From positions 558,001-622,000 of the forward strand of contig OZ237744.1 of the NCBI GenBank assembly GCA_965178125.1: a stretch of 64,000 nt of DNA, in the 5' to 3' direction. Below, one piece after another: positions 1 through 64,000 of the stretch (its first letter is position 1; the number at the start of each line of letters is the position of its first letter). The DNA is from Bilabrum cf. latius. Lineage: Eukaryota. The translations under genes were made by a program, and so were the position numbers. The notes beneath the pieces are model-generated. The model was not told where the DNA came from and made no database searches. It worked only from the letters and a program-made list of their open reading frames with translations.

Positions 1-51
1 CGCGACACTACATGAAATGCAGGCGTGCCTCACTTCAATACATCCAGGACT

Positions 52-2223
52 TCAGGACATCCAGGACGGCCTCGTCCCAACGCCGAGCATCCGCTGCCGG
101 CTGGCTTGCAGGTTCGCCCTGACTGCATCGGCCCTCGTCATTTCGCTGCCCCCGGCAACACCAATGCCAGCCATACCTTTCTTCCCATCGCTTGATCTTG
201 CTAGATCCGATAGCCCTCCAGAACCTCTTGGACCACTGCCCCTGCCTGACACGCCCCCATCCCCATGCACGCCCCTGCCTGACACGCCCCCATCCCCATG
301 CACGCCCCTGCCTGACACGCCCCCATCCCCATGCACGCCCCTGCCTGACACGCCCCCATCCCCATACACGCCCCTGCCTGACTCGCCCCCATCCCCATGC
401 ACGCCCCTGCCTGACACGCCCCCATCCCCATGCACGCCCCTGCCTGACACGCCCCCATCCCCATGCACGCCCCTGCCTGACACGCCCCCATCCCCATGCA
501 CGCCCCTGCCTGACCCGCCCCCATCCCCATGCACGCCCCTGCCTGACACGCCCCCATCCCCATGCACGCCCCTGCCTGACACGCCCCCATCCCCATGCAC
601 GCCCCTGCCTGACCCGCCCCCATCCCCATACACAGCCCTGCCTGACACGCCCCCATCCCCATACACAGCCCTGCCTGACACGCCCCCATCCCCATACACA
701 GCCCTGCCTGACCCACGGCTCCAACCATCTGCACCTCGACCTCGTCCCACGGTCGCCCTCTTTGGTGACGTCACTGCGACAGGCCTCATGCTTCCCTCAA
801 GAGCATAGGCATGGCGTGCAGGCGACCTCAGGGTCACGGCGCTACGATCCGCACCACTGGCGATACCTCGCCCCTCCTTGGCACTAGTACCAGTTGAGGC
901 CGCTGCTGCCCTAGACGTTGAGCGGGTACCGGACCTGGGAGCAGCGCGAGACCCTGAAGCCGCAGCAGTGAGACTTAAGGCGGGTGTCTAAAGCTCTACG
1001 TGTGTGCTGCTATCAGGGGCGAGGCGCTGCCCCGCCTCGTCCATGGCATCCCACGCGCAGCTCCTGTCTCTTCCGTACTCTACCATCTCCCGAAACCACG
1101 CGCGCTCCCGCAGGGCAAGCCCCAGCTCCTCCGATGTGGCATCCCCAACCGCAACTCGGGCGTCGATAGCATCCCCAAACCGGTCGCTTGCAAGTGAATC
1201 TGTTCCGCCAGAGAGACGCGGCCCAGCACCCCTGCCCCCACCGGCCCTGGCAGCTCGCGTTGAATCCGCAACCGCAGGCCTCTCGCCCTCAACAACCCCT
1301 TTGATCCACGATCCGAGGGCATGGCGCGCCATGTCGCACGCAGAAATGGGATCAAACATGCCTTGAGTCCCTCCCATGGAGCCGCCAGCCGCAGCCCCCA
1401 TCCGGCCCCTTGCACGGCTGCCTCCACCATCGCTGCGACTAGCGTCAGCTGGCGACAACGACATCACCTTGCGCATGCACAAGGGGCACAGGTGCAAGGA
1501 AGCTGGTAATTCCAGTGAAGCATCAACAGGACCGCTGCCAGGCGCAGCCATTGATAGCAGACAGTCTCTGCACTCTGTGCACTGGCCCAGACCCGCTATC
1601 TCGGCGACAAGCAGTCTGGCCACCAGGTGAAATAAGTGCAATAAACGGTGCCCGTACCCCTCGCCTTCCGATTTGCCCTTACTTGCATGAGGAAAGAATC
1701 CTTTCAAGTGAGCCAAAATGATGGTTGGATCTTTCGGTCGCCCCGGTGAAACTACAGCTACGCTGTGCGTGCTTGTGCTGAACGCACTCTGACCACGAAA
1801 CGGAATGCCAGACAGCACCAGCACAGCGTCACATGTTGCCAGATCAATTGATCGCCCAATAGCATCAATAAGAGGCCAGAATCCGCGAGAAACCCCGAAT
1901 CGCTTCCCGTCTTGCTGCTTTGAGGCTGCGTCGCATGATTGTAGCTTCGCTGCGATCCCAATGCTGCCAATCAGACGCTACATTGTCCGGACCGGCTCCA
2001 ACATACTATCAAAAGAACATGATTCTCCTTCGTACAGCACTGGGACAATCGTAATCGCTGGCTATCTGGCCCCAGCCACTCGAGACGCAAAGCTTGCAAA
2101 TGTGCGATCTCGCGGCACTTGCAAAGGGCAGTGGAAGAAGCTGTGGTCCTCAGCTGGAAACAAGTATCGTTTGGCAGACTTATTAAACGGAAGAGGGCCT
2201 AATGCACTTTTGTAAGACGCCAT
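52..2223 (-). CDS. Archaemetzincin-like protein (degenerate Zn-binding motif) with C-terminal Gly-rich tandem repeat
   Basis: ORFs 2062..2271, 988..1824 and 52..837 share one frame, joined by TAG at 2062, 1978 and 988. ATG at 2223, TGA at 52. 'GLGQC-TECRDCLL...LHLCPLCMRKV' resembles the archaemetzincin Cys pattern, but HExxH is absent. Confidence 0.55.
238..713. repeat. 33-bp tandem repeat, ~14 copies plus a partial copy
   Basis: Unit ~CCCCTGCCTGACACGCCCCCATCCCCATGCACG with few substitutions. It encodes GRGVHGDGGVS in the minus-strand gene frame. Confidence 0.95.
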
Positions 2224-2333
2224 GATTGTGCAGTTGCCGTTGGCGAGGGATCCGATATCGCTTGGAAACACACATTACATTGAGTATCTGGTCGCGCGCT
2301 CGCTTCCAGCGGCTCCAATCAAACGATTGAATC

Positions 2334-5300
2334 ATGTGCTCACTGAGATTGCTTGCTGCGTGCCTTAATTCAGCAGACAGTGCATCAAGTAGCTGCCTGC
2401 AGGTGCAGAGAAAGGCTGCAAGTGGCGATTCGATCCCGAGTCATTCTACGGTTCTTCGGTTGGGCATGCCGCAGCAGACCCATAGCCGCGTTGAGCTCCG
2501 ACAACATCAGGCTTCATTCGATGCAGACATGAGAGTCGATTCTGATGGCTATGAGTCATTGCAACACGAAATAGCAGGCGCAGTCTCAGCCGTAGCCTCT
2601 GGCTTGGAAGACCACGCTTCGGTGGTGCTGCTAGGCGCGTCGTCCTCCGGCAAATCGGCTTGGCTGCTCGGCAAGAAAAGAAAATCGTTGCTTTATTCAA
2701 TTATTCGAAGTATCCTAGAGCAGTTTGGCGAAGTATCGGTCAGAGCAGCTGGATTGGTCGGCAAGCGGATACTGGACTTTAGCGATAGCCAAGACGCTTG
2801 CCAAGCGCGCATTCGATCGGATGCAGCACGCGAACGCCTCAGCAGAGATGGCAAAGTGAATATAAAGCGAGTGGTTAGAATTGTTGACCTTCCATCTGAA
2901 GCAACGAAAAAGGAGCTGGATGCATCCCGCTCCAAACGGCTCGCGTCAATTCCGACGGGCAGCGGAAGCAATCACGTGTCCACAGCCGGGGTACGAACGG
3001 AGATCACTGGCCTGCAGCGAGTTAAAATATATCGAGAAGAGTAGATTGACTTGTGGGTTTCCTTCTTGAGAAGGAATCTCCGGAGCCTGCAGCTCGACGC
3101 GCGCCAGGTGGGACCGCTGGGGCGAGGCGGGACTCCAGGTGGGATTCACCTCAGCATTTTTATTGACGTGCCTGGCGGGGGATGCATACGGATTTTAAAG
3201 GTGTCGGGTGCCTTGCAACTTCAGGAACACGACAATCGAGCAGGATTCAGTGAGGCAGCCACGAGAGCTAGTGCGGTCGCCAGACGCAAGAGGGCAGGGC
3301 AGACGAATCAAGCGAATCTTGCCATAAGCAATGTGCTTGGCTGGCTAGCCCTTGATTCGCTTCGGTCTAGTGGGCTGACCGGCGCATATGGCACTATAGC
3401 TTCCCCAAAGGCGGGATCAGCTCGATCACCCGCGTGGGGCGGATCCCGTGTTCCCGCTCCAGAGATTGTTCGCAGGCGCATTTCCGCGCTGAGGACATCT
3501 CCGCGGCGTCGAACAGATGACCGGAGCCGCGCAGATTCTGGCAAAGTGACCATCTCGGCAAACCATGCAGAGCAGCGAAGCGACAGTGCTAGGGCGAGGG
3601 CGGCAGGTACCGCCAGCACCGAGGCCAGGAGCATCGAGCCTGGAGACCTCAGCATGTCTGAAGCAGCAGGTCCTCTGGTGCCGTTCCGAGACCATCCTGT
3701 TACTCGGTTGCTGCGTCAGGCTCTGCTGGAAGTTGGGCAGACTCTCATCGTGACGTTCCTGAAGAGCGATCCTGCATGCATGGAGGACACTGCGGTGCAC
3801 CTGGCAAACGCGAGGAAGCTCAGGGTGGTGCAGCGCTCTCGCCCGCCGTACAGGACTGCATCCATTGAAAGCGTTGCCGCGGTTGCTGCTTCGATGAAGA
3901 GGATCACAGCGGGCAGTAGCATCTCTTCGACAGGCCGTGCCCTGCTGCAGCACAGCTCAGCCGCTGCGGTCACCAAAGGAGAGCCAGAACCTTCGGGGAT
4001 CGTGGACAAACGGTACACTGTGGACGATGGATTTACCGAGGCAGACGGGTCTGAAGGAGCAGTGCAGGTGAAAGGCGCCACCGCCGGCTCACCGACTCGA
4101 CAGCCGAGTGCCCTGCGAGTCCTGGCGCATTCGATGGGTGCAGCGGCGGACGGCGTGTCCAAGATCGGTCAAAAGATAGAGCTGATGGCCGACAAGGTCC
4201 ATTTAGTCGACTAGGATGCATCAAAGCTGATTGACACCCTCGGAAACATGGCCGAGCTCTCGCAAGACAGCGCAAGCCCCCCTCGAACCGGCTCGGATGA
4301 CGCGGGCGAGGATGGAGAAGATGGCGCCAAGGAGGGTCCAGATAGAGCGTCCGAAGTGCCTCTCAATGCGATGCCTAGACTCATTGCAGAAGCCCTTCGT
4401 TTGGCTTCCAAGATACGGAAGGACGCTGGCGCGGCTGGCAGCCAGGTGCGAGCTGCGGCCAGTGCGGTGCAACAGACCGCATCTGACATGAAGGCGTTTG
4501 GGGACGCAATCGCGGTGCAGCCCTCTCCGAGCGGATCTCCGCAGCGATTGGGAGCAAATGGTCACGCAAAGGAAACCGAGTCGAGGTTCGGCCTGCAGGT
4601 GGTGCCTTCGCCGCGGCGAGCGGCGACTGTCAGCGATGGGTTCAGCAGTCACGGTGGTCGAAGTGATAAGGGTGGTGACCCGGCACCCACAGAACAGCAA
4701 GGCGCTGCCATCACAATGACTATCAAGACGAGGTAGGAACAGCCAGCAAGTTTTACGGCGGGTAGAGGGTTGGACAGAGCGCCCAACTCGAAGCAGTAGA
4801 CACTGCCTCAGCCGCTGCCTGCCTTCGAGATCCATCGGAATGCACTGTCTGCTTCCAGGACCCGCACGCCAGGGCGATCTGCACGAAATCCAGACGCAGG
4901 CTCTTCAACACCTTTGTGCTATCCAATCAGCGGAAAGAGAGAGAAAGCGGGTCACCACGCGAGTTGGGGCGGCGTGCCAGCCTCTCTTGACGAGGTGGCG
5001 TCGAGCAGCACCATGCGCAGCCCTGTGGCGGCGACACCGAAGGATCGCCACCGCCGCCGCCTGCTTGTTTCTTCTGCCAAGGCTGCCTTGGATGCAGCGA
5101 ATGGAGGAGAGCATCGCGGCGGACGTGCTGGGGATGGGCCCGTTCGAACAAGCGGCGACACTCCACTCAATGACACGATGCACTCGGTGCTGCCATCGGA
5201 TGCACCCCCCAGCAGTGCGGAGGAAAGACTCGGACTTTCGTCTAATGAAATCAATGCTGCGGGTGGCGCTGGTCTGGTGGGTGGCACACGTTCTGTGCAG

Positions 5301-5627
5301 CATGCAGGTCCCGGTGATGGCGACCATCACGGCGACGGTGGCGGAAGTGCAGACAGTGATAGCCTCGAGGAGCTCGACTTGCCCAGAGGCGGGCAGAAGA
5401 AGAGAGGAGCCGCAGAAAGTGAGGAAAACAGAGGCGGCAGTAGCGATTAGAGCGACGCAGACTCCCCATCCATTGACGCATCGCCGGAGGGACCCGCCCG
5501 TGCAGCTTCAGGCGATCGCAGCTTACACGGAGACGATGGGCTGGAACGCAGCCTAGTTGGGACCGGAATGTCCGCTCGCAAAGGCGCGGGGCGCCGCACA
5601 ATGGCTGAGCTCTTCGAGTTCGCGTGA
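2334..5627 (+). CDS. Divergent kinesin motor-like protein with long low-complexity tail
   Basis: ORFs 2334..3044, 3051..4214, 4248..4736 and 4914..5450 are in one frame, joined by TAG at 3042, 4212, 4734, 4797 and 5448. TGA at 5625. P-loop 'LLGASSSGKS', kinesin-like 'VPFRDHPVTRLLRQAL' and 'TLIVTFL...EDTAVHLANARK'. Confidence 0.7.
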
Positions 5628-5630
5628 AAT

Positions 5631-5861: not shown

Positions 5862-8800
5862 TCACAGGGAGAAAGCATACAGGTGCGGAGCATGTGCCCG
5901 GCACAAAGCGCGGTCCAGTCCCACATCAGGGTCCCCTGCCGGGACCCACCATTTCCTCCTCCATGACCGTCTCTGCGTCTCACGATCCTTCAGAGAGGCT
6001 AGCATGCACGCGCTCATGCCTTTGGCCCATTGCCTCTCTATGTCCCTTAGCAAGCCGTGGGGCTTAAACATCCGTCGCTGTAGCCGAGCGTTCGCATTGG
6101 TTGCCGCTATCAGCTCTTGCGTGGCCGTGGCGGCAAGAGCAGCCGCCGCATCGCCTCGCATCCACTGCCTGCACGTCAGCTACTCCTGCTAGCGCAGCTG
6201 GTTCCTGATCACCTGCACCACTCGGTTGGCCAGCTCCTTGACAGCTGTCCGTTCCGATGACCGTGCAATCGTACGCTCTATCCGAGTGAGTGCGTCTTCG
6301 ACGATTGGCTTGGCCCTGCTGGTGCGCTCCAGCTTCTCGTCCCAAGGGTCCTGAGCGAGAGCTGTCTTCGCCCATGCTTTCCGGAGAGAGGCAGGGGACC
6401 TCCCTCTATTCTGATCCGCATCATCGGGTTGCCACGGTCTCGTTCCGGCATGATGGTCATGCTCGGCCCGCTCCATCTGCTCTACCGCGGTGCCCATCAC
6501 TTGAAGGTTGGGCGTGCCCTGTTGCGGGTATTGTCCAGCTCGGATGCGCAGAATTCGTCTTCCTTGGTGGCCGTATTCCTGCACCACCGCTGCTGTTGGC
6601 ATGGCTCCTGGTCCGAAGGCATACCGTCCCTTCGTTGCGTACCGGTTAAGCATGACCACTCCGAGCGCAGCTCTCTCCCGGTCCCAATCCGACAGTGCCG
6701 GATCGTGCGAGCATCCCAGGCTCAGGCTTGTGAACGATCGGTCAGCAGCTCCGGATTTGGATTTCCTCCACTTTGTGACTTTTTTTGCAGTCTCCTGGCA
6801 TCCCAGCCAGTCCTTCGCGTCATCGATCCGGTGGGTCCACCCTGCCATCTTGATCCTGAATCCCAGTGCCAGCGCGGCCCCGAGTGGGCCTGTCTGTACT
6901 GGTGGTCCCTGCAGGAATCGGCCCTGGTGGATGAACCTGGCCGCAACATCAAGGCCCTTCTTCGAGGGACACTCGATCAGGTCCAGCAGGCCCATAGCAA
7001 CACGCCCTGCTGCCGATGCCGTCAGCAGCTCAGTGTCCATCGCAAGGTTTGGCACGTATCGGCCGCCCATGGTGAAGGGCCTTACCTGTGTCGATCCGCT
7101 GACAATCATCCAGCGCGTATCTAGCAGGAATTTGTCCAGCATCTTGAGGACTTCCAGGTTCAGTTCCATCCCGTAGAAAACTTGGGAACCATATCCTAAT
7201 CCTGACAAGGTGTCCCATCCTGTTGCACATGCCGCTGCCTCTGCTCCGTAGAATGCACTCGTGATTGCTCCTGCATGGAGCAGCTGGGCGTGCAGGGAGA
7301 CCGCCCAGTTGCCGTTCACCGCCGCTCGTGTGATGTCCCTGGCCGCCCGGTACGCCATCGCAATCCTCCTGCGTACGTGGGGTGCCATATCAATTACCCA
7401 GATGTCTCTCGCCTGCGTCAGCCCAGCTACTTCATCTGGGCTGATCCGTACTGGTTGGGTCGAAATGAGTAGACCGAGGTACAGGTAGGATGAGGCAAGT
7501 GGGATGGTCCACTCCCCATCCGTCTCTCCCGCGTCCGCTGCTCTGCATGCGACGCCCTCTGGCATGTCCCCAGGAATTGAGTCCCGAGCGTAGCCAAAGG
7601 CCATGATCGCTGTCTTGGTTCCCTGGCCCGATGCTGTCAGGGGCTTGATTCCCAGCTACATGCCCGCAAGTGCAAACAGGCTCTTGACTAGCTTCATGAC
7701 CGCCACTGCTTCGTTCCAGTTCGACGTCAGTGCCACGTAGTCGTCTGCGTACCCGACTTGTCCACATTCAACGTATCGTCCGGTGTCGGTCACGATCCTT
7801 TGATGGTGCCCGTGCTGGAGCCTCTCTTTCCGCAGCGTTTCCAGGAGAACCCCCATCAGTACCAGGAAGATGGTGGGAGACAGAATCTCGCCCTAGGGGG
7901 TGCCCGCCGTCTTCTGCACTCTGGTAGAGACCCTCCTGGTGAGTGGGTCTCGAACGCGGATGGCCACCTGCATGCGGGCCATGAGAAAGCGGACCGTCTG
8001 GCGTCCCCATCCTTGCTCCGTCATGATGGCCTCGATGATGTTCCACTTGCAACTGTCAAATGCTCCTTTGATGTCAAAGAATACCAGAAAACCTCCAGCA
8101 CCCCTTCGTTGGGTAATCCATTCCATCACCGCTGAGTAGGCCTGCTGGCAGTTCTTGCCGATGCGAAATCCGGCCTAATCCTGGCCGAAGAGTCCGTGGT
8201 TTTCGCAGTACCACATGACCTTCTGGTTTGCGATGGTGCTTACGACCTTCGAGAGAGCCGAGGTCCAGCATATTGGCCTGAATTCGTCGACTCCTGTGAC
8301 TCCTGTGCCCTGCTTGCGCTTGGAGACCGGCCGCATGAACCCCTCCTGAAAGGCCTCAGGCTGAATCCCCGAGAAGAGTGTGAGATTATAAATGGCCCTG
8401 AGGAGGTCCAACAGAGCGTCACTTCGCCGCAGACACCCGTCCTCCTCAGAGCATGGCTAGCATTTGGTCAGCAATTCCGCCCTGATCCCATCAGGTCCCA
8501 CAGCTTTGTTGTGCTTGAGCTTGTCCAGTGCTTGATCCACCTCTGCGTTCGACCTGCAGAATTGGTTGAGCGGTGTCGCTGCCCTGGGCATGTGCGGCGC
8601 AATCCTGGCCATAAATCCGCCCACATCCGCACTTCCATTCCCACCTGCGTGAGAGAGCTGCTGTGCGTGTGCCTCTAGGATATCCTCGACGGCCGTAAGC
8701 ACCTCTCCGCCTAGGTTCGTGATTGGTTCCAGTCCTGGTGCAGCTCGTTGCCTTCTAGAGATTGCATCAGCGATCTATCGGTGGGCTTCCCTCGGACTTG

Positions 8801-13964: not shown

Positions 13965-13975
13965 TGTGAAACAAT

Positions 13976-16831: not shown

Positions 16832-17672
16832 TTACCCAGAGGAATCATCGCACATGGTTTCAAACCCAGAGCCTGCCCTGCCCCACGCAGGACACAGCAT
16901 CGGCGACGTCAGCACAGCACCCACTACGCCAGCCACTGCAAAGCCCATCCCGGCACCAACAATGACGTCTCCGATCCAATGGCAACCGAAATACACTCGA
17001 CCAATACCAACGATAGGAGCAAGCAAAATCACCCACCATTGTCCTGAGTACCACCCGGCTGTGAGGAGCAAAGCTGAGGCCATCGCCGTATCGCCCGATG
17101 GGAAAGCTTTCGTCATCCGCTCCAAGCTTCTCAGATCGAGCCATCTGTGGGCAGTGGATCCAATCCTTGGTCGTTCACGGCCAGCGATATGCTTCCATAT
17201 CCCGGTGACAATTGCACAGGATATCACGACGCAGGCTATCCAAACTCGCTAGCCGTTGTTCGCAAGCACAAGGAGCAAAACAAGAACAACTGCGACGCCA
17301 TACCACGAAAATGCCATTGTTGGGAGTAGCAGCATTGCCTCGACTGCCTTGATGTCAACCCTGCGTGGTGAAATGTGAAAATATCAGATGCGTGGAGGGA
17401 CTGCAGCAGACTCCGTCTGCACTGTCGCCTTACGCGCCTTCCACCGAAGCTTACCGGTGCACAGCTTGGCTGGCTTGGATGTCTTGCGACAGTAACTATC
17501 CAGTGCATGTGCTCGGATCCTATGCCCAGCCGTCTGGAGTCTCGGTTTGGTTGCAAAGCAGTTGCGACTCGTGGGCGGCACCGGATCGAACGACGCCAGA
17601 CCTTCCTGCCGCGGCACCAGTCCGCTTATATGGGATTTCTATTTCCTCATTGACTATTCGGGGTGCTGCCAT
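16832..17672 (-). CDS. PAP2-family lipid phosphatase-like membrane protein (intron 17361..17454)
   Basis: Motifs C1 'KHIAGRERP', C2 'FPSGDT' and C3 'GRVYFGCHWIGDV'. A 94-nt GTAAGC...CAG intron joins the two frames in correct phase. TAG at 17520, 17496 and 17249. Ends at TAA 16832. Confidence 0.8.
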
Positions 17673-30732: not shown

Positions 30733-30753
30733 TTAGCTGGGCATGTGCCGAGT

Positions 30754-53100: not shown

Positions 53101-54045
53101 AGTCTCCAGCTGTGCCCGAGCGATAGCATGTCGCTTCTTGTCATCAGCAGCTCCCGTGAGCGTGGACGACCGCGGCCCTTCTTCGTTCCCGTGCGCGCCG
53201 TCGGATGCACTGTCGACCGGTACGATGCTAGAGCCTACGATGCCCCTGCCTACGCCATGGTCCCTGACGTACATCGAGGAGCCGAACGTTCCTTGCACGC
53301 TACTCTTCGAGGCGGCTGCGCCTATATTGATGCCTAGGGCGCCGTGCTCGCGTTCGATCGCGGTGTCAACGGCTCTGGCTGACTCCCTGTACCGCTCCAT
53401 CGCCAGGTCTGCCTCCTCTTGTAGACGCGCTGTCCGCGTTCGCAACAGCTCCTACTCTTGCTATACTCTCTGGCGGTGGGCAGTTTGTGCCCGCACGCGC
53501 TCGTCCAAATCGTCAAACTTTCTGGCGACCGAATTCGCCAGAGTCGATTCTTTTCCAATGAAGCTATCCCCGCCAATGATGATCGAGCTGGACATGTGGG
53601 ACCGTCTCGTTTCCATCATGCCTAGGCTATCAACGCTCTCTCGTTTCGACAGGACTGCATCGTCGCTATCGGAATCCGCATTGGCCGAGGCTCGAGGAGT
53701 GGACTACGTGGTGTGCGGTCTCTGTCTTGACGGAGATGGCTGGCTGCGGCGCAAACCTCCTGGCCGACTCGACCTTGAAGCCATGAACTTCTTTCTTACG
53801 CTCTTTGGAACCTTCTTGCGTATACCCTTTGGATTATTTGACACACTGGCCTGATATTGTTTCCTCATCCTCGGCAGTCTAGATTCAGAGGCCTCAGAGG
53901 TCATTGATTTCTGCGGAGTAGAGCCGGCCTTGCTTCTTGCAGCAGCCATGGCCGCCTCCCTTCTTGCTTTCTGCGGTTCTAGGGCATGATCGACCATATA
54001 TGAAGGGATGCCATAGTTTAGAAGTTTCTGCTTTGCCTGTCTCAT
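47170..54045 (-). CDS. Large (~2,290 aa) coiled-coil/low-complexity protein of unknown function
   Basis: Ten ORF-track fragments from 53704..54057 to 47221..47403 share one frame. The junctions I checked contain only TAG. ATG 54045, TGA 47170. E/Q/R/A/L-rich heptad-like stretches. Confidence 0.7.
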
Positions 54046-54176
54046 TGATTCATGCACAATTCCTTAAAGTGAGTTGCGTCCGTTGGATGGTCGCAACGAA
54101 CGTTCCAGTGAACGGCGGTCGCACGTGCTGCGCAGCACGCCACACGACATCTATAAATAGCCCCATGGCGGGCAGC

Positions 54177-56855
54177 TTACTTCTTCGATTTCCCTTTCCT
54201 TCCGCCCCCCTTCCCCTTCTTTCCTCCAAGCGCGCCGCCCACGGCCTTCTCTTGAACAACAGCCTTGCCCTCCTTCGACTCTGCCTCGGCCACTGCAGAT
54301 GCTTCAGCTTCCGCCCCGCCGGATGCGGCCCCCGACTGCACTACGGCCTGCACGGAGGCAGGGGCGTCACCTTTTCCGCTCATGAAGTCTCCCATCGCCG
54401 CCTCGGGAAGCCCCAGAGGAAGACTTGCCTCCACTCGGAAGTTGGGGTCGCGGGAACGGGCCGCCCGAATGGCCGCTACAAGTCCAGCGTCTGTGACGAG
54501 TGGGAGATGTGCAGCGCCCAGGAAAGAGACCTGCTTGCAGCCCTTTGCCACCGTCATGAGTCCTTCGTCTGTCACCTGCGGGCAGCCAGCGATGACCAGC
54601 TGAACCAGCCGACCGCTGCTCGGACCCCTCGTGATCTGCTCCAAGCCGGCGTTGGTGAGTCCAGCCAGGCCCGGGATATGCAAGCTGTGCAGACGGGTGC
54701 AGTGGCGCACGATCCAGCCGACGGCAGCGTCACCGTAAGGAACAGTCTCTGGCCTGCTCCTCTTCTTGCCCCCCTTGCCTCCCTTCTTCTTGCTGGGCTG
54801 CTGCGCTGTGGCGGGTTTGCCGTTGCTCTTGGGCGCACCGCCCTTGCCAGCGCCACCCTTCTTCTTCCCGCCCTCCTGACCGCCCGCCTTCGGGCCGTTG
54901 GTAGACGCCCCGCCAGAGCCAGAGGCGGCGGCCTTCTTCTTGCCTCCCCCCCTCCGCCTCCTTCCCCGCCGTTTGGTGGCAGCAGCCGCGTCCGCTCCGC
55001 CAGCCAGTAGCTCGTCCGCCCCATGGGTCGGCATCACCCCAAGCTCGCTGCGGGCAGCAGACGGCGGGGCGTCGATGGCGCGGGCGACACGGTACTCCAC
55101 CTGCTGGTGGTTCCTGAGAGTGGTCACGCCTGCGATCAGGACCTCGAGCCTAGTGCAGCCCCTCGCCAGCACCTCGAACCCCTCGTCCGTCAACCCCTCG
55201 CAGCCCGAGACGTCCAGGCGGGTAAGGTTCTGGGAATAGGTCGCCAGCACACCGAGGGCAGCCGACGTGATAGAGCACCCTTGCAGGGACAGGTCCAGCA
55301 TGGACCGACCGGTGCCGAGCATCACGCTGCCAACGCCATCGTTGGTCACAGAGGGATTGCCCGCAAGAGACAAGCGGATGAGTCGGGGCGAGCGGTAGGC
55401 GAGCGTGCACAGCGACTCGTCGCTGATGCCGGTATACGACAGGTCCAGCGCACGCAGGCCGCGCAGCCGAACGAACATCGCGCCCAGAGCGAGGTGCGCG
55501 AAGCCGCGCAGCGGCCCGTGGCTGATATCCAGCGAGGTTAGGTTCGGGCATCCCTGCGAGATGGCTGCGAGAGACGCGTCAGAGAGCGCGCCGCACTGGC
55601 GGAACTGCAGTGACGTCAGCGAAGTACACTGGGGCTGCACCTCCTCCACCACGTTCTCCACTCTGATCCCCTCACACTGGAGCTGCCTCAAGTGCGGGCA
55701 GTCCGACAGCAGCGCAGCCACGCCGTCACCCGTCACGGAGGGACAGTACTGCACGGCAATCGACTCGAGATCCTCGCAGCACTCTGCGATCTCCTCCAGG
55801 CCCTCGTCGGTGATGCCCAGAGCGTAGGACACGTCTAAGCGGTGGAGGTACTCGAGGTGCTGAGCGATCTGGGTGAGGGAGTCGTCGGTCAGCCTGGGAC
55901 AGCGACTGAGCACCAAGATCCTCATGTCCCGGCAGGACCGCGAGAGCTCCTGCACCCCGGCATCTGAAATCCGCACGCACCCGTCTGCGTTGAGCATACG
56001 CAGCCGAGGGCAGCTCCGTCCGATCAGGGCCACGGCCTCGTCGCCCAGGTTGCAACCGCCCACGTCCAGGGCGAGCAGGTCTCTACAGCTCTGCACCAGG
56101 GCGTCGATGCCCCGGTGCGTGACGAGTGGGGACGAGACCTTGACGTAGGAGAGGAACGAGTGGGACGCGCCGAGCGCCTCGAGCCCCGCATCGGTGATCT
56201 GGCACCTGCTCGCGTCTAGCCTGGTCAGATGAGGACAGGCGGATAGTGCACTGAGCCCTCGATCCGTGACTCGCGGTGCAGACCGATCAGAGACACTCGC
56301 TCGCACAACCGGCGGCCCCGGTTGATCGGCTCCTGACGGAGCGGTTGAAGATCCTGCCGAAGGCAATCCAATGGAGCTGGTGTCCGCGACTGCACGCTTC
56401 ACCAGCTGCAGGGCATCGCCCATTTCAGCGCGTTCAGTGTCACCTTCGGCAGATGCTGCTTCGCTTGCACTCCCAGATCCTACCGTCTCGACAGCCTTGA
56501 CCGCGCTTCCGGCCGGGACAGCGATCGTAGGCGGGTGGTGCGAATGCTGCTCTTGCACGAATTCGTCCGCGATGAGAACTTCTAAGTTGGGGCATTTGCC
56601 ACCGATAGAGGCGATGGCATCGTCCGAAACGAAACAGCCGCGAGTGCTAATGTCGTGGATGTGTCGGCCATGGGCTGACACAACCCAGTCCAAAAGTTTC
56701 GGGACCTTCCTCGGAGGCGCTGCCCCCATCGAACCAAAATCAACTGCTCTCCAGTTCCTGTCGTCATCCAAGGCATCGCGCCAACCTTTCGATACCAGCC
56801 GCAGCTGCACTCTTTCGCAGAGCGGGAAGAACTAGAACACGCTTGACATTGCCAT
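54177..56855 (-). CDS. F-box/LRR-repeat (FBXL-like) protein
   Basis: F-box-like 'VF[TAG]FFPLCERVQLRLVSKGWR' followed by many cysteine-containing LRRs ('ITDxGLxxL...CxxL'). Ends at TAA 54177. 5' end uncertain. Confidence 0.9.
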
Positions 56856-57050
56856 GGCGTTTTACCCTTTGAAACACCAAAAATTGCGTTGTTTTAGATC
56901 GAATCCAGGATACAGCTGCCAAAAATTCTTGGCAAACGTTTGATCGGGGCCGATATTTCTTGCAAAGGAGCGCATGGAGGCCAGGCTGTTCTTTTGTAAG
57001 GCGCACTTTCAAATCAATCGAAACAGCAAGTTTAGCACTGTATTGATAGC

Positions 57051-59114
57051 ATGCGGTGCGCCAGAAGAACAAGGGAGCTGCTATAGTCGTATTCTAGGTT
57101 TTTACTCCAAGGTAGCGGCAGGTCACTTCGTTATGCATCTTTGTCACTTCGACAACAGTTACTTCAGTACCCCAGGCGGAGCCCGAAGTCCTCGCATGCA
57201 TTTTCTTCCCGTGTGCACGGAATAGGCATATCTACCCATGCATTGGGCAAACTAAGTATAAGATAGTTTGTATCAAGTACTGCTCTGGCTGCATCCAATG
57301 TTTAGAATCCGACAGAAAAGGCACGCCGTCTGGCTGCTGCTAAGCCTTCGCTGCCCAAGAAGTTAGGTATTCGCCGGAGGAAGATTGGAAGAATACACCC
57401 CCCGACACGACCTGCTGAAGAGGTGTCTGAGGATGCAGCTAGAATGGCGAAATGGGTACAGGAATCAGGTGGAAGCAAGAAGAGTTCCGTGTCAACGGTT
57501 GCTCTTGCTTTGGCCGGCAACTCAGTGATAACAGTGCTGAAATTTATCGTGTGGATCCGCACCGGCTCCAGTGCAATGTTCGCTGAAGCAATTCATACGC
57601 TCATGGATTCTGTTAACCAGAGCGTGCTCCTGCTGGGGCTCCGACATTCGTCGGCTGCACCGGACTCCAGGCATCCGTACGGATACGGCAGGGCAGCTTT
57701 CTTCTGGGGACTAGTCAGCGCCTTAGGGACATTTTGGTGCGGCGCGGGAGTAACGACAGTGCATGGGCTCATGCAGCTGGCGAACGTGGTGCGAGGCGAG
57801 CCAACGGAAGTGCTGGTGAACTGGGAATCTTGGGCTGTTCTAGCTGCATCCCTCGCAATTGATGGGGCTGTGCTCGTGCAAGCGACCCAGACTCTTTTTA
57901 GGAGAGCAGAAGCCGAGGATCCAGGAGCTGCTGCTGTGATTCAGGAGGCGGTGCAGGAGGTTTTGGCACAAGGCAAGCAGCAGCAGCAGCAGAGCCAGCA
58001 GCAGTAGCATTCATCTGGGTCTGACGGGTAGGAGCAGGCAGCATCGACCGATAGCACCCGATCAGTGCAAGCCGTGTAGCCTAGTTTATCAAGCGGACAA
58101 GGTGGAATGCCTGCGCTACCGCATGCCAGGCGCTGGCCGCTGGGACCGAGGCTACTGGAGGGGCTGTCCCAAGGCTGGATGCATGAGGACGTGGCAAACA
58201 GCGGCGCATCGTGGCCTGTGCGCACGAAGGCATAGATCCTCCGAACATGGATGCGATTTAAGCTTTTATACAGGCACCTGATGACGACAAATGATCCGTT
58301 TGTGGTGGCTGTGTTCCTGGAGGACTCGGCTGCGTGCCTGGGTGTCATCCTTGCCGCTGGCGGGATCGCACTGACACACATCACCGCGAACCCAGTCTTC
58401 GACGCGCTTGCTTCCATTTGTATCGGGGGCCTTCTCGGGGGTGTGGCTGTGCGCATGGTCAAAATGAATCAAACATTCTTATTGGGCCAGTCAGTGGATG
58501 CCGAGACAGAGCATGACATCCGTGACATGATCGATGCATGGCCTTCGATAGAGCATGTGGGCGAAGTGCAGACGCAGTGGCTGGGACCGAAGGCCTTTTC
58601 GTTCAAGGCAGAAGTGGATTTTGACGGGACGTGGCTCGCAGCCAAGCTGCATTCTGAGTACCAGAACCATTTCTTGCAGTCCAAGGACCTTGCTGCGGAT
58701 CTGCCAGTCCTGCTATCGTACTACGCCGAGGATGTGACCCGTGTCGTTGAGCGAGAGCTCAAGGACGTGGAAGATACTATTCGATCCAGGTATCCACATG
58801 CTGCCTTCATCGAACTGGAACCGGATAGCACGGAGAGCGACAGGCACATGGTGCAGGACATGGGGGACGAGCGCAAGAGGGCAACGGAGCGCAGATTCAT
58901 CATGCGGGCCTTCACCGATGTGCTTGCGCAACGACGAGCACGGAAACCGGACGACCCGAACGTCGACGCCGAGCAGCAAGTGCTGAAGGAGTGGTTCGCT
59001 AAGGCACAGCACGGGAAGGAAGATTTCCCTAGTGATAATCGCAACGCGTCGGGGGGCTAGGCTGGGGCAGACGAGAAGAGTATGGACTTGATCAAGCGCG
59101 GGGGAGTGGAGTAA
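57051..59114 (+). CDS. SLC30A9: Cation diffusion facilitator, ZnT9/SLC30A9-like, with probable mitochondrial presequence
   Basis: 'SAMFAEAIHTLMDSVNQ', 'HPYGYG', 'VFLEDSAA', 'LLGQS', 'FKAEVDFDG'. One frame from ATG 57051 with 8 TAGs; ends at TAA 59112. Confidence 0.85.
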
Positions 59115-59248: not shown

Positions 59249-62200
59249 TCACTGTGGAGTCCCGCGCGAGTCGTCTCGCTCAACTATTCCAGGAAGTCGG
59301 ACAACCTGCGGCAGTGTTCGGCCTTGCTACTCGGGGCTCTGGATCGATCCTGGCAAGGCAGCTGGTCTACCCCGACCCCGACCGTCGCTCCCACCAGGTT
59401 GTAATCCAAACCGACCTCGTCCACGTCCGCGAACTCCCTGCCCACCATTCAATCGAGCTGCAGCCAAGAGCTGCCGACCTCTGCCGGCCTGCACGAGGGT
59501 CCTCGGGCCGGATCGCGGGAGCTCCCTGCGAGCCGATCGCTCGTCTGCATCGCGAGCTGGGTTGGAGGTGTCGAAATGCAAAGAATCAAGACGTTCTGTG
59601 GCATCCCTTACGTACAACGGCGTTGATTGTAGTCGGCCAGCAGCTCCTCTTGCGGCTGAGGCTGCCACACCATCTCTGCCGAGTTGAACTCCATCCGCCT
59701 AGGGTCGCCGGGCGGCACCAATGCCTGCTTCCACAGCTAGGACCGGGTTGGAGGTGAAGGGCTCCCTTGCAATCGCGGACGTGCGCCGGAAAACGCCAGG
59801 AGACTGTCCCGCCCTACTAGAGGCCGAGCTGGAAGAGTTCTTGGACTGGGAGCTGCTCCAATGACGCAAAAGCGTGCCAGACCCCCCAGCTGCGCCTGGT
59901 GTCTGCATCGAGGCTGCCCCCGAATCAGAACTCCCTCGCTGGGTCGATTCCTATTCAGATCGCAGCCGAATTCCCACGCTTGATCGACGAGGGTCAGCAA
60001 CCTCTGACGATGCCGCTGAGCTTGGTGATCCACGGGCTCCTCGTAGCTATCCAGCACCAGCACTTCGCCCTCTCCCTCGTCCAACAGATAGAACAGCCCG
60101 CCTCGCCCCAAAGGCAAGGTGTTCATTGTTCCTAGTAACCACAGACTTGTCCCCAGTCGAGCTGGCTGCTCTGTTGCTCGACCCAGATGCAACTGAAAGT
60201 CTCGATGCCTTTGGCAGCTAGTGTGGGGTCTTGGAGCTTTCCTGCGCTCTTTCCTACCTGGATCCAGCTGAGACTTGAGCCACAAGGTTCCTTGACGAGC
60301 CTCTATGTGCGGCGAGAGCCTTCTGCACAATTGACGACACGTTACGGTGCTTCAGCTCCTTTCTGCCAGGCTTCTGTTGATCCTCATCTCCTGGGCGCAC
60401 AAACCCCAAGCCTGGGTTCGCAATCCGGAGCGGATTGTCTCCCTCAAAGTTCAGCATGGCGTTCTGGGAACTCTTCGATAGCGATGGCTTTCGCTCCAGC
60501 GACTTAAGCCTGACTCGTACGGCTTTTGTCCGCACCCTAGGTACCGAATTCGACGACTTGCGCGGGAACGCATCACCTTCCTCTGCATCAGATTTAGACG
60601 ATTCTGGGCCCCACATGGGATTCTCCAACTTCTTCATGTCGCCACCTACGCCTGCAGCTGACAGTCCCCTGGTGTTTGAGGCATGCGCTATCTTCTGGGC
60701 GCGTTCATTCGAATCGCCGGCAATCGCACGCCCAATTTCACCGCGATATACTACCAATACCACAACAATGGCGACCAGCGCGACAGCTCCAATGACTATT
60801 CCCGCGATTGCAGCCGGGCTGAGCTTGCCGTCTGGTGTACCATCTGTAGTGGGAACCGGTCCAGGACCTGCAACGTTAAGTAGTGTGGGACGCCGAATCG
60901 CGAGGAATGCTCCAGGCGAGCACACGAAGGGCAGCCGAATTGCGTCGATGCGCTCGTAGTCCGCAGGCCACCATCCAGTCTCGTTGAACGGTGAAGTCTC
61001 ATTATCAACCGCATCCACAACGGGCGTATCTGGCTCAGTTCCGTTTCCGGTGCCATTGTCTCCACCACGCCACCAAGGGGCGAGCCTGGGGCGGTGATCC
61101 TCATCCTCAGAGCCATCCACGGATACCATGACTTTTCGGCTCTGAGCAATTATTCCCAGCGTCCCACTCGTGGTGACCGCACCGTCCTTGTCTTCGACCG
61201 AAGCCTGAAGCAGAACTATGGAAGCTCGCGCGGCATCGCCCCAAGCTAGGCCTCCCCACGCAGACGGTGCGTCCTGCGCCGGCATAATGTCCACGATAGC
61301 GGCCTGGCCTGTCCACTCCCTGGATGATGACTGACCCCAACCCTGCGACGCACCATCACTGCTTGGCCAGACTGGCCGCACCGTGCCTGTCTCGGCCAAT
61401 GCGTTAATTCTCTCAAGCTCATCCGAGGTAATGCCTCCCATAAGCGCCGCTTGGTGAGACGCTAGCCCGATAGCAGCATCTTGGAACGTGGCAAGCTGCG
61501 TGGAAAACTCCGTGACAGATGGATCAGACTCGTGGGTACCAGCAATGTAGCCGGCAGACTTGGGCTTTGAAGAGAACACAGAGATGGCAGGGAATCCCTC
61601 CTCCCATCCAGAAGAGGAAGCATCGTCAGCGTTGAAGCCCCGCCGCCCGAGTGGCGCAGATTCTAAGTGTACAGACACGGCAGGACGCGCAGGCCACTCA
61701 AGCAGTCTATCTGTAGCAGTATCAGGGGCCACTCTAGCACCCAAACCAGGTTCTACAGCATTGAATTCATGCTCTGCCTACGACATGATGCTGGCATTCT
61801 ACGAAGCATCTACGGGCTGGACAGTGCGCCCAAAGTCTTCCAAGTTGTCCGCACTATCCACGGCAAGTGCATGGAGCTCTGCCACCATCGAACGGACCAT
61901 GGGAGCATCATACCATGGAGTGACTTGCTGTTGCCCATCAAGCAGCAATCGTGCTGCTGCCTCAGCCATGCGATCATACGATGGACCAGCCAGTTGTTGC
62001 GCCAGTCGTGCACGGACAAACTTCGCTGCGTCTGCGGCACATTGCACAAGCTGCTGGATAGCCTCTACGGATCCCATCTTCCCGCTGTCGTACGACGAGG
62101 CATGTCTGTCAAGAAGAACGGGTGAATGCCGTGTCATCTGGCTTGCTGGAGCCATAGATCCCGCCAGCTGGATAGACTTGAGGATTGCAACGCCAGCAGA

Positions 62201-64000
62201 TCCTTCGTTCGGATGGAGCATGACCTCTTGGATGAGCTGAACGGGGCCGTGGTCAGCGCCCGGCCATGGGAGGTTCGACACAGACACGCACTGCGGCAAT
62301 GTTAGGCCAGCCTGGGCCAAGCCGACCCAGTTCACAGTGCGTCGAATTGATACAGCTGTTGCTACAGCAAAGGACGCACCAGTCAGCACACGCACATTAC
62401 TAACACGTCCGCGGACCAGGCCACCAACCGCATAGCCATCTGGATCGATCGATCTCGACAGATCCACTGCCACTGACAAGGCTTCATGCGAAGCAAAAGG
62501 CTAAACAGAGTCTTTCCAAGCAGTCCTTTCTTCCACTGTTGCATTTGATGGAGCCATTCTCTATAGAAGCTCATACCCTGATGCGGCTTGCACATCTGCG
62601 GCGCGCAGCCAACTCGAGCCTGCAGCCGGAATTGGCGATGAGATCGTCACCCCCGGAAGTTGCAGGGGATCCTCCATCCCACCCGATTGCTCCAGCTGTA
62701 GCTTCTGTAGCCAATTGCTTCTGCTCGAAATAGTCCAACTCGACACGATGCAGGTGGGCGGGCGATGCCGGCGCACTGACACCACAGCCTCATCGACTGC
62801 TGTCTCGCCAGCAGCCGCTCGGCCAAACAGCTCTTCCGACAGCACTTGCTGCATCCTTACGCGCATCGTGTAGGTGACACCGTACACCATACCAGTGAGG
62901 CTCGTGGAGACTTCGTCGACGCTTTCAATGGTTGCTGCTTGAAGTGCGTCAGCGCTGCTCTGCGACGTCTCGCCAGCCTCCGGGAACGCCCTAGTCACCT
63001 CCCAAGCCGTGTTCAGCATGTCTAACGGGACGAGAGCGATGCTTCCAGCGGCGCTAATTGACACTTCCGCACTGGTTGACACGGGATGCGCCACCCTGGC
63101 TTTCGCGGCGAGCGGGTCACCCACGTGCACAGATGCTGCCCGCTCAAGGCCATCGATGTCGCGAGCAACAAGACGCATCCTCAGTGCGAAGGGTTTGGCG
63201 GCCTGTGAAGAGCTCGCAGGCTTGTTCCCAGGGACGTATGCCTCCACAAAGGCCGCTGCAGCACCCATCGACTTCGATGGAATCGCATCGCCGTCTGAGG
63301 AGATCGGCGGCACAGGCCCAGGGCAGCCACGGATGCTTTGTCCCGGCTCAGGTCCGGTCTCACCGGCATGCAGAAGAGCCTCCACCCGTTCAGGTCTCAG
63401 CGGAATGCATGGCAGTTGCGAGTCGTCAGGGGAAATGAAAAGTGGCATGATCTCAAAATCTTGGACGGACTGTCCCTGAAGGTCCCACTCCCACCAAACG
63501 GCCTCGATGTCGGAATCAGGGTCAATGGTGCTGGACCCATCCAAGACGTACGCTCGCACTGCTCCACGAGAGTTTCGAACAAGTTCGGGCGATTCCATGG
63601 ATCTTTCTTGCTCTCTTCCAATCATAGCAGGTACACTAGATTGGAGAGCATCAAGATGCGCGGCAAACGCAGGCGGTACGGTGGCATTGGCGCACGTCAT
63701 ATTGGCTGGCACCAGCCCGCTCTGTGTTGAAACACCTTGGCAAAGGTACAGCCATTCACTCATGCCGTCCAAGGACCGGTCTTCAGTGCCAATCCTTGCG
63801 TGGAAGCCAGACGTGCCAGTGCTGTCTCCAGTCTCAGGAATCATTGGATCTGCTTCCACAACAATCTATCCGGATGAAGGGTCGATTTCGAACATTCCAC
63901 GGGGATAAACGGACCTGCTGGCTGAAGGCACAGGGGGCCATGCAATCCGCACAGACACAAACTTGTCATCAAAGCTACCCAACTCGTCATACACCCTCCC
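59249..64000 (-). CDS. Large type I membrane protein with PKD/Ig-like extracellular repeats (5' part beyond the window)
   Basis: One frame open to the window edge with only TAG interruptions; TGA at 59249. 'LDGSSTIDPDSDIEAVWWEW', 'VDLSRSIDPDG', TM segment 'AAIAGIVIGAVALVAIVVVLVVYR', then an S/R/G-rich cytoplasmic tail. Confidence 0.7.

What the first reader, a model, noticed from the sequence alone, without database searches (positions are those of the whole stretch)
1..64000. Non-standard nuclear genetic code: TAG is read as glutamine
Seen: all 18 reading frames contain in-frame TAG (more than 100 by my hand count), and the broken ORFs resume in the same frame without frameshifts. TAG sits at positions where these families normally have Gln: RT 'D[TAG]AGFR' (8175) and 'GTP[TAG]GEILSP' (7893); calpain 'VI[TAG]RALGACW' (44108); ABCA 'FFR[TAG]L' (32841) and 'KHQ[TAG]LISGVS' (37555); FMO 'PLFRD[TAG]A' (45832); LRR 'N[TAG]I/L'. 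Established: QxGFR and PQG are conserved non-LTR RT motifs, and QGxLGDCW is the calpain active-site motif. Inference: genome-wide reassignment of UAG to Gln. The sequence does not look ciliate-like (GC-rich, ~90-nt introns), so this may be an independent and possibly unreported reassignment. I cannot identify the taxon.
Basis: partly seen in the sequence, partly recalled or inferred. Interest (0 to 1): 0.97.

Follow-up and report, generated by a model that had tools for sequence, protein, structure and literature searches.

The report
UAG read as glutamine, non-ciliate protist
This stretch of a GC-rich protist nuclear genome uses the stop codon TAG as an ordinary glutamine codon while still ending genes at TGA and TAA, a rare genetic-code variant seen here outside the few lineages known to have it.

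Summary
Read with TAG as sense, the window holds 17 gene models. The 16 long ORFs carry 133 in-frame TAGs and end in TGA (14) or TAA (2). In 15 of them the coding frame has no TAA or TGA in 18,875 codons.

Three runs give spliced transcript contigs with GT..AG joints that the DNA run lacks. They carry the TAGs unchanged: 30 of 31 TAGs in the laid region in run X5. This excludes assembly error, pseudogenes and majority RNA editing.

TAG means glutamine. It falls on near-invariant Gln columns in ABCA (118/120), reverse transcriptase (151/155 and 149/152), the calpain active-site motif and FMO. In a syntenic metagenome relative (50-62% identity) that also has in-frame TAGs, TAG pairs with CAG/CAA at 8 of 14 aligned sites. 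There Gln beats the next residue by 18 log-likelihood units.

TAA looks like a stop, so the code is of the NCBI table 15 type. This kind is known from Iotanema, Protocruzia and some phyllopharyngean ciliates.

This organism is GC-rich and probably aerobic, and its nearest named homologues are stramenopiles. It is therefore likely an independent origin. The taxon, the tRNA-Gln(CUA) and eRF1 could not be examined. Five literature searches found no report.

The parts
5862..14249 (-). Non-LTR retrotransposon ORF of 2795 codons (endonuclease-like 'GDFN' region plus RVT_1). It has 21 in-frame TAGs and ends in TGA.
8175..8177 (-). TAG in the RT motif 'FGQD[TAG]AGFR'.
   Evidence: The column is Q in 151 of 155 aligned homologue stretches (the hits come).
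7893..7895 (-). TAG in the RT motif 'GTP[TAG]GEILSP'.
   Evidence: Q in 149 of 152 aligned stretches. Q in the R2 structure 9nl2. Q in 4 of 4 related fragments at 40-55% identity that span the site.
13970..16636 (+). GH115-family glycoside hydrolase ORF. It has 3 TAGs and ends in TGA. The TAG at 16034 pairs with CAG in the L001 orthologue.
17654..20989 (+). PRMT7-like arginine methyltransferase ORF. It has 7 TAGs and ends in TGA. The TAGs at 17972 and 19268 pair with CAA and CAG in L001. The TAG at 19631 pairs with GAA.
21077..22921 (-). ORF containing a TMEM65 domain. It has 8 TAGs and ends in TGA.
23878..27903 (+). La-domain protein ORF. It has 13 TAGs and ends in TGA.
27613..27642 (+). 15-nt tandem duplication CAGCAGGTCGCCCCG / TAGCAAGTCGCCCCG. 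The copies differ only by CAG>TAG and CAG>CAA.
   Evidence: Read directly. Both differences are synonymous if TAG = Gln.
32825..39666 (+). ABCA lipid-transporter gene. Its exons end or start at 32859/32951, 33041/33147, 33175/33298, 33342/33500 and 33599/33810. The stop TGA is at 39664-39666 and transcript contigs end at 39726.
37555..37557 (+). TAG in ABCA 'KHQ[TAG]LISGVS'.
   Evidence: Q in 118 of 120 homologues, H in 2.
32841..32843 (+). TAG in the ABCA N-terminus 'MQFFR[TAG]LFLLLWKN'.
   Evidence: Of 77 homologues with a residue here: Q 35, H 21, F 10, Y 4, other 7.
39886..41199 (+). Two-exon LRR gene with an intron at 40230-40314. It has 4 TAGs, three of them in 'N[TAG]I/L/V' repeat positions. 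It ends in TGA at 41191-41193.
41324..44515 (-). Calpain-family protease ORF. It has 6 TAGs and ends in TGA. A transcript contig spans 41274-44476.
44108..44110 (-). TAG at the Gln of the calpain active-site motif 'VI[TAG]RALGACW'.
   Evidence: Aligned to Q of 'icQGALGD(C/S)WL' in all 3 calpain-2 alignments shown.
44446..47055 (+). FMO-like monooxygenase ORF. It has 4 TAGs and ends in TGA. The TAG at 45832 is in 'PLFRD[TAG]ADF'.
   Evidence: The TAG at 45832 aligns to Q in 2 of 2 S. pombe FMO alignments.
47170..54063 (-). ORF of 2297 codons with no family match. It has 28 TAGs and ends in TGA. A transcript contig starts at 47108.
54177..56861 (-). F-box/LRR protein ORF. It has 1 TAG and ends in TAA.
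57000..59114 (+). Cation-efflux (CDF) transporter ORF. It has 9 TAGs and ends in TAA.
59249..64000 (-). ORF of 1583 codons with no family match, open at the window end. It has 11 TAGs and ends in TGA.
52..5627 (.). Two further ORFs. 52-2274 (minus strand) has 3 TAGs. 2331-5627 (plus strand) has 5 TAGs and a weak kinesin-motor match. Both end in TGA.
27985..32106 (.). Two further ORFs. 27985-30732 (minus strand) has 5 TAGs. 30616-32106 (plus strand) is hydrolase-like with a weak DUF7379 match and has 5 TAGs. Both end in TGA.

Best explanation
The window is nuclear DNA of a GC-rich, intron-poor protist in which UAG has been reassigned from stop to glutamine. UGA (mainly) and UAA still end translation. 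This is a code of the NCBI table 15 type.

Shown here:
- TAG is a frequent in-frame codon in every gene of the window.
- It is kept in spliced mRNA.
- It stands at conserved Gln positions.
- It interchanges with CAG/CAA between orthologues.
- At least one more distant relative, at 50-62% protein identity and with the same gene order, has the same property.

Inferred, not shown:
- Decoding uses a dedicated tRNA-Gln with anticodon CUA. That anticodon is one base change from the CUG anticodon that reads CAG, and it pairs with UAG but not UAA.
- eRF1 has lost or weakened UAG recognition while keeping UAA and UGA.
- Because C>T changes turn CAG into TAG, TAG has spread to about 15% of Gln codons.
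For: 1. ORF structure. TAG-sense gives ORFs of 2795, 2297 and 1963 codons, against 1088, 884 and 670 under the standard code. There are 133 in-frame TAGs in 19,387 codons of 16 ORFs, which end in TGA (14) or TAA (2). For 15 ORFs the coding frame has TAA 0 and TGA 0 in 18,875 codons.

2. The genes are real: Pfam finds ABCA, calpain, RVT_1, GH115, La, FMO, F-box/LRR, TMEM65 and CDF domains.

3. Transcripts. Runs X5, X6 and X7 show six GT..AG joints that run X1 lacks. No 'other letters' are listed. Listed pieces cover 30, 12 and 17 of the 31 in-frame TAGs in 30500-50400. Transcript contigs end 50-62 nt past the TGA of ABCA, calpain and the 2297-codon ORF.

4. Residue identity:
- ABCA 37555: Q in 118/120.
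- RT: Q in 151/155 and 149/152.
- Calpain: Q in 3/3.
- FMO: Q in 2/2.
- ABCA 32841: Q is the commonest residue, 35/77.
- Log-odds over 8 columns: Q +11.2, next is S at -9.0.

5. Orthologue test. Locus L001 keeps the order GH115 then PRMT7 and has 11 in-frame TAGs, no TAA and no TGA. Across the two genes, 14 TAG sites are aligned to a residue: Q 8, G 2, E 1, T 1, A 1, S 1. Log-likelihood is -27.5 for Q and -45.5 for the next, K.

6. A 15-nt duplication shows CAG CAG against TAG CAA.

7. Fragments P0123 and P0125 come from a relative at about 90% identity and are broken ORFs. P0125 ends exactly before the window TAG at PRMT7 residue 949.
Against: - Some TAG sites align to other residues. These are Leu in the 90%-identical relative at PRMT7 residue 930, Arg in mouse PRMT7 at residue 539 (but CAG in L001), Gly in Choristocarpus at residue 107 (but Q in mouse and CAA in L001), Glu at residue 660, and Ser, Thr and Ala in GH115. 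At the edge of the La repeat array, TAG at 25858 stands where later copies have AAG. All of these lie in variable columns.
- The share of Gln neighbours is 0.055 for TAG and 0.082 for Gln, and is not distinct from Met or Tyr.
- No tRNA gene was found in the window or in L001, and no eRF1 sequence is available, so the mechanism is untested.
- The ORFs were defined as TAA/TGA-free, so the zero TAA count is partly circular.
- Contigs drop rare variants, so partial editing cannot be excluded.
- No peptide evidence is available.
Confidence: 0.9

Rival explanations
1. The code is ambiguous: UAG is Gln inside genes but also ends translation near some 3' ends, as in position-dependent stop/sense codes.
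For: Several ORFs have a TAG 18-44 codons before the TGA or TAA. The ABCA TAG at 39568 lies beyond the last Pfam domain, in a column where 82 of 120 homologues have a gap. Nothing in the window can show that UAG never terminates.
Against: No gene model needs TAG as its terminator. Measured from the TGA, the 3' ends of ABCA, calpain and the 2297-codon ORF lie a uniform 50-62 nt downstream. Measured from the last TAG they would be uneven: 158, 229 and 115 nt.
Confidence: 0.06
2. Both UAG and UAA encode Gln (table 6 type), and UAA is simply rare because the genome is GC-rich.
For: TAA is rare everywhere: 224 TAA trinucleotides in 64 kb. This is the commonest variant nuclear code (abstract of PMC5304391).
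Against: There are 0 in-frame TAA in 18,875 codons against 128 TAG. CAA makes up 1.2% of codons, so A-ending Gln codons are not avoided. Two ORFs end at TAA, with the next gene 130-135 nt away. Adding TAA as sense barely lengthens the ORFs. L001 has no in-frame TAA.
Confidence: 0.03
3. UAG is sense but encodes another residue: Leu as in the rhizarian exLh, Ser as in Scotinosphaera, or Glu or Lys as in some ciliates.
For: Single sites pair with L, E, S, K or R. These variant codes are named in passages of PMC11687900.
Against: Four near-invariant Gln columns. Column log-odds: Q +11.2 against S -9.0, E -10.3 and K -10.5. Orthologue log-likelihood: Q -27.5 against K -45.5.
Confidence: 0.01
4. It is an artefact: assembly or base-calling error (CAG read as TAG), RNA editing of UAG to CAG, or decaying pseudogenes.
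For: None was found.
Against: Four runs from three studies give the same letters with no listed differences. Three of the runs are spliced transcript assemblies. Pseudogenes would also accumulate TGA and TAA, and there are none. An independent metagenome contig of a relative shows the same pattern.
Confidence: 0.005

Closest known systems
Iotanema spirale (Fornicata) nuclear code: UAG = Gln with UAA kept as stop. Seen in the abstract and passages of PMC5304391.
   Same: Only UAG is reassigned, and to glutamine. UAA and UGA remain stops. The expected mechanism is a tRNA-Gln(CUA) plus an altered eRF1.
   Different: I. spirale is an anaerobic endobiont and uses UAA as its main stop. Here 14 of 16 ORFs end in TGA and GC is 0.59. 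The genes include an FMO and a TMEM65 protein. From recall, an FMO needs oxygen and TMEM65 is mitochondrial. The nearest named homologues are stramenopiles. An independent origin is therefore likely.
UAG = Gln in the ciliates Protocruzia tuzeti and two phyllopharyngean lineages. Seen in Discussion passages of PMC11687900. 'Genetic code 15' is named in the abstract of PMC9523058 (listing).
   Same: The codon table is the same: TAG = Q, and TAA and TGA are stops.
   Different: No named ciliate appears among the 120 best ABCA homologues. GC is 0.59. Introns of 85-210 nt lie in a contig of at least 30.5 kb, in an assembly whose longest contig is 212 kb. That ciliate genomes are typically AT-rich is recalled, not tested.
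UAR = Gln codes (NCBI table 6 type): many ciliates, hexamitid diplomonads, some ulvophyte algae, Amoeboaphelidium. The taxon list is partly recalled. Hexamitins are mentioned in the PMC5304391 abstract.
   Same: A stop codon is reassigned to Gln, and TGA is the main stop.
   Different: TAA is not used as sense here: 0 in 18,875 codons, and 2 ORFs end in TAA.
UAG-only reassignments to other residues: rhizarian exLh (Leu) and Scotinosphaera (Ser). Seen in passages of PMC11687900 and PMC5304391.
   Same: UAG is uncoupled from UAA in a non-ciliate nuclear genome.
   Different: The residue here is Gln, not Leu or Ser.

Membership tests
Nuclear code with UAG = Gln and UAA/UGA as stops (NCBI table 15 type) | UAG occurs in frame inside genuine, expressed protein-coding genes. 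| tested here: met
   133 TAGs in 16 ORFs. Pfam domains confirm the genes. In X5, spliced transcript contigs carry 30 of 31 TAGs unchanged.
Nuclear code with UAG = Gln and UAA/UGA as stops (NCBI table 15 type) | UAG positions correspond to glutamine in homologues. | tested here: met
   Q in 118/120, 151/155, 149/152, 3/3 and 2/2. Orthologue pairs give Q at 8/14, with an 18-unit log-likelihood margin.
Nuclear code with UAG = Gln and UAA/UGA as stops (NCBI table 15 type) | UAA is not a sense codon and still terminates. | tested here: met
   0 in-frame TAA in 18,875 codons, and 2 of 16 ORFs end in TAA. The sample is small, the count is partly circular, and no transcript ends were laid for those two genes.
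Nuclear code with UAG = Gln and UAA/UGA as stops (NCBI table 15 type) | UGA terminates. | tested here: met
   14 of 16 ORFs end in TGA. Three transcripts end 50-62 nt beyond it.
Nuclear code with UAG = Gln and UAA/UGA as stops (NCBI table 15 type) | A cognate tRNA-Gln with anticodon CUA is present. | not testable with these tools
   No tRNA gene in the window or in L001. No whole genome is held.
Nuclear code with UAG = Gln and UAA/UGA as stops (NCBI table 15 type) | eRF1 is altered so that UAG is no longer recognised. | not testable with these tools
   There is no eRF1 gene in the window and no genome is available.
UAR = Gln code (NCBI table 6 type) | UAA is also used as a Gln codon. | tested here: not met
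   0 in-frame TAA against 128 TAG. Treating TAA as sense barely changes ORF lengths.
Ambiguous stop/sense codes | The reassigned codon also terminates, depending on context. | tested here: inconclusive
   No gene needs a TAG stop, and 3' end distances fit TGA. Termination at late TAGs cannot be excluded.
UAG = Leu, Ser or Glu variant codes | UAG columns are enriched for that residue. | tested here: not met
   Log-odds are S -9.0 and E -10.3, with L below the top eight. L, S and E are each at most 1 of 14 orthologue partners.

The most novel reading that the evidence does not exclude
A separate, still undescribed origin of the UAG = Gln code (UAA and UGA kept as stops) in a clade of GC-rich, probably aerobic, non-ciliate protists. 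Their nearest named homologues are stramenopiles. The clade spans at least three lineages: the window's organism, a relative at about 90% identity, and a relative at 50-62% identity. If it lies within stramenopiles, it would, as far as I recall, be the first nuclear code change in that group. It would also be a case that arose under GC-rich rather than AT-rich composition.
Probability: 0.5. Interest if true: 0.85.

Novelty: new member of a known kind. Interest (0 to 1): 0.72.

Why it matters
- Nuclear code changes outside ciliates are very rare. Cases in which UAG and UAA have different meanings number only a handful (passages of PMC11687900 and PMC5304391).
- A new lineage with genome and transcriptome data, plus relatives at two depths of divergence, would allow the reassignment to be dated.
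- The predicted tRNA-Gln(CUA) and eRF1 changes could be compared with those proposed for Iotanema.
- It would test whether stop-codon capture can happen in a GC-rich genome where TGA dominates termination.
- Practically, any annotation of this organism or its relatives under the standard code breaks nearly every gene into pieces. The public protein fragments P0123-P0125 and P0135-P0144 show this.

Tried and rejected
- No whole genome is held for the window. A genome-wide Codetta-style scan, a tRNA-Gln(CUA) search, an eRF1 analysis and an 18S placement were therefore impossible.
- ARAGORN found no tRNA in the window or in L001. Rfam found nothing.
- Earlier findings of this scan: nothing by place, by words or by sequence.
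- The look-up of sequencing runs listed no RNA holder on record. The RNA nature of X5-X7 rests on their splice joints.
- The word-index search with the RT region gave only 2 weak hits. The full HMMER search was needed.
- I ran the PRMT7 search with lengths 'shorter'. It missed full-length PRMT7s but exposed the broken ORFs of relatives.
- PDB searches found nothing for ORFs 2331-5627 and 27985-30732. The CDF alignment did not cover any TAG.
- The Gln-neighbour enrichment of TAG was not decisive.
- Taxon. In the ABCA tree the query falls among unnamed proteins plus EukProt 'GECG01' entries. The nearest named sequence is Bicosoecida sp. CB-2014. The best named PRMT7 hit is the brown alga Choristocarpus at 38-41% identity. 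Cluster look-up and a literature search for the transcriptome accession prefixes gave no organism. The taxon remains unresolved.
I dropped that step.
- Literature searches found no report of UAG = Gln in a GC-rich non-ciliate or a stramenopile. The library lacks most subscription journals, and supplements were not read.
- Structure prediction, fold search and complex prediction were not used. They do not bear on the question.
Full report
**Observation**

The window is GC-rich, 0.55-0.62 in 4-kb bins, and clearly eukaryotic.

Under the standard code the longest stop-to-stop ORFs are 1088, 884 and 670 codons. If TAG alone is read as sense they become 2795, 2297 and 1963 codons. Reading TAA or TGA as sense instead gives no comparable gain.

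Sixteen long ORFs read with TAG as sense hold 133 in-frame TAGs in 19,387 codons. Fourteen end in TGA and two in TAA. A seventeenth gene, a two-exon LRR gene, holds four more TAGs. The ABCA 5' exons hold three.

For 15 of the ORFs, the coding frame has 0 TAA, 0 TGA and 128 TAG in 18,875 codons. The other two frames have 60/90 TAA, 305/412 TGA and 170/160 TAG. TAG is thus the only 'stop' tolerated in frame, and it occurs at close to its background frequency.

**The genes are real**

Pfam finds the following:
- an ABCA transporter
- a calpain protease
- a reverse transcriptase
- a GH115 hydrolase
- a La-domain protein
- an FMO-like monooxygenase
- an F-box/LRR protein
- a TMEM65-domain protein
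- a cation-efflux transporter

A PDB search adds a PRMT7-like methyltransferase.

**The TAGs are in the mRNA**

Thirteen public runs hold part of the stretch. I laid four of them on 30500-50400.

Run X1 has flat depth and covers the whole stretch in one piece with no joints, so it is DNA and possibly the source of the window. Runs X5, X6 and X7 come from two other studies. They show six GT..AG joints that skip 85-210 nt: five in the 5' part of ABCA and one in the LRR gene. Their cover is gene-shaped and their depth differs between genes. They are therefore transcript assemblies, although they are not recorded as RNA.

No 'other letters' are listed for any run. The listed pieces cover 30, 12 and 17 of the 31 in-frame TAGs in that region for X5, X6 and X7.

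Transcript contigs end 50-62 nt beyond the TGA of ABCA, calpain and the 2297-codon ORF.

This excludes assembly error, pseudogenes and majority RNA editing. Because contigs drop rare variants, minority editing is not excluded.

**Which amino acid: conserved columns**

- ABCA TAG at 37555: Q in 118 of 120 homologues.
- RT TAGs at 8175-8177 and 7893-7895: Q in 151 of 155 and 149 of 152 aligned stretches from the 150 best HMMER hits.
- Calpain TAG at 44108-44110: the Gln of 'QGxLGDCW' in all 3 alignments shown.
- FMO TAG at 45832: Q in 2 of 2 alignments.
- ABCA N-terminal TAG at 32841: Q is the commonest residue, 35 of 77, then H 21 and F 10.
- Variable columns give mixed residues. ABCA 37153: E 35, T 18, Q 13, S 13. 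ABCA 33303: G 28, Q 24. RT 7658: E 6, K 3, Q 2. RT 8459: G 19, A 15.

It gives Q +11.2. The next are S -9.0, E -10.3 and K -10.5.

**Which amino acid: a relative**

A shorter-length protein search turned up ORF fragments of relatives. P0123 and P0125 lie on one 13.8-kb contig and are about 90% identical to the window's PRMT7. P0124 is 56% identical. P0125 stops exactly before the window's TAG at residue 949. It has Leu at the window's TAG at residue 930.

A metagenome scan then returned locus L001, with GC 0.55. It carries the GH115 orthologue (62% identity) followed by the PRMT7 orthologue (50% identity), in the same order as the window. Both genes are broken under the standard code and continuous with TAG as sense. 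They hold 4 and 7 in-frame TAGs, no TAA and no TGA. The GH115 copy ends in TGA.

Fourteen TAG sites, in either organism, are aligned to a residue in the other. The partner is Gln (CAG or CAA) at 8 of them. The rest are G 2, E 1, T 1, A 1 and S 1. In the same alignments Gln is conserved at 44% of its positions.

Using substitution frequencies taken from those alignments, the log-likelihood is -27.5 for Gln and -45.5 for the next residue, Lys.

Two window TAGs that had paired with non-Gln residues in distant homologues pair with CAA and CAG in L001. These are PRMT7 residue 107 (Gly in Choristocarpus) and residue 539 (Arg in mouse).

**Internal evidence**

In the La gene a 15-nt tandem duplication reads CAG CAG GTC GCC CCG, then TAG CAA GTC GCC CCG. 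Both differences are synonymous if TAG = Gln.

**What TAA and TGA do**

TGA is the main stop. TAA is never in frame and ends two ORFs, whose neighbouring genes lie 130-135 nt away.

CAA is 1.2% of codons and CAG 2.7%. If TAA were Gln in a similar ratio to TAG, roughly 55 in-frame TAAs would be expected. None is seen.

The count is partly circular, because the ORFs were delimited by TAA and TGA. However, treating TAA as sense scarcely lengthens any ORF.

Whether UAG also terminates in some contexts cannot be settled here. The uniform 50-62 nt distance from TGA to the transcript ends argues weakly against it.

**Mechanism**

This part is inferred. Reading UAG but not UAA calls for a tRNA with anticodon CUA. 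Efficient reassignment is thought to need an eRF1 that no longer recognises UAG. This reasoning comes from passages of PMC5304391. Neither could be tested: no tRNA gene lies in the window or in L001, and no genome is held.

TAG makes up about 15% of Gln codons overall. It is rarer in ABCA (4 of 101 in the main exon) than in the ORFs without family matches (28 of 136). That pattern would fit a less favoured codon, but the sample is small.

**Comparison with what is known**

UAG-only reassignments are known in these organisms (Discussion passages of PMC11687900; abstract and passages of PMC5304391):
- an uncultured rhizarian (Leu)
- Iotanema spirale (Gln)
- Scotinosphaera (Ser)
- Protocruzia tuzeti (Gln)
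- phyllopharyngean ciliates (Leu once, Gln twice)
- one oligohymenophorean, where UAG = Glu and UAA = Lys

TAG = Gln is 'genetic code 15' (abstract of PMC9523058, listing). The codon table here is therefore of a known kind.

The organism does not fit the known carriers:
- Iotanema is an anaerobic endobiont that uses UAA as its primary stop.
- This genome is GC-rich and uses TGA.
- It encodes an FMO and a TMEM65 protein. From recall, an FMO needs oxygen and TMEM65 is mitochondrial.
- It has homologues nearest to unnamed protist sequences and, among named ones, to stramenopiles. These are Bicosoecida sp. CB-2014, Paraphysomonas, Tetraparma, oomycetes and Choristocarpus.

This placement is weak. 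The best identities are only 37-41%, and the ABCA tree does not resolve it.

Five literature searches found no report of such a code in a stramenopile or any GC-rich non-ciliate. The library is incomplete and supplements were not read.

**Verdict**

The window's organism reads UAG as glutamine, with confidence about 0.9. It keeps UGA and, very probably, UAA as stops. It shares this with at least one clearly more distant relative.

This is a new member of a known kind of code variant, probably of independent origin. Whether it is already described depends on the identity of the organism, which these tools could not give.

Noticed in passing
window 5862-14249 (-): A 2795-codon uninterrupted ORF of a non-LTR retrotransposon (endonuclease-like region plus RT) with 21 TAGs. 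The element is written in the host's variant code and looks intact. Public fragments 40-86% identical to it (P0135, P0136, P0138, P0141, P0144) are short ORF pieces, probably broken at TAG.
   Followed up: partly
window 13970-20989 and L001 3-5376: The gene order GH115 then PRMT7 is conserved between the window and a metagenome relative that is only 50-62% identical. A GH115 hydrolase with a chitobiase/Fn3-associated C-terminal domain is an unusual eukaryotic gene and may have been acquired from bacteria.
   Followed up: partly
window 32859-33810: All five ABCA introns lie in the first 1 kb or so of the gene. The remaining 5.9 kb is a single exon, a strong 5' bias of introns in an intron-poor genome.
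   Followed up: no
window 238-712: A 33-nt tandem repeat with 14.4 copies at 97% match. It encodes an 11-residue 'GVSGRGVHGDG' repeat in ORF 52-2274 on the minus strand.
   Followed up: no
window 25859-26123: A 27/81-nt repeat array in the La-domain gene, encoding 'SEAPRAAKA' units. The TAG at 25858-25860 sits at the array's edge, where later copies have AAG.
   Followed up: partly
window 31797-31831 and 41133-41160: Contigs of all four runs, the DNA run included, have loose ends here. X5 and X6 show a 9315-nt 'joint' with only 20 letters on the shorter side and non-intron ends (TG..GA). It is probably a short shared low-complexity repeat that confuses assembly, not a real junction.
   Followed up: no
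window 39666-39726, 41265-41324, 47108-47170: 3' untranslated regions are very short, about 50-62 nt. Genes are tightly packed, with convergent and tandem neighbours 115-135 nt apart.
   Followed up: no
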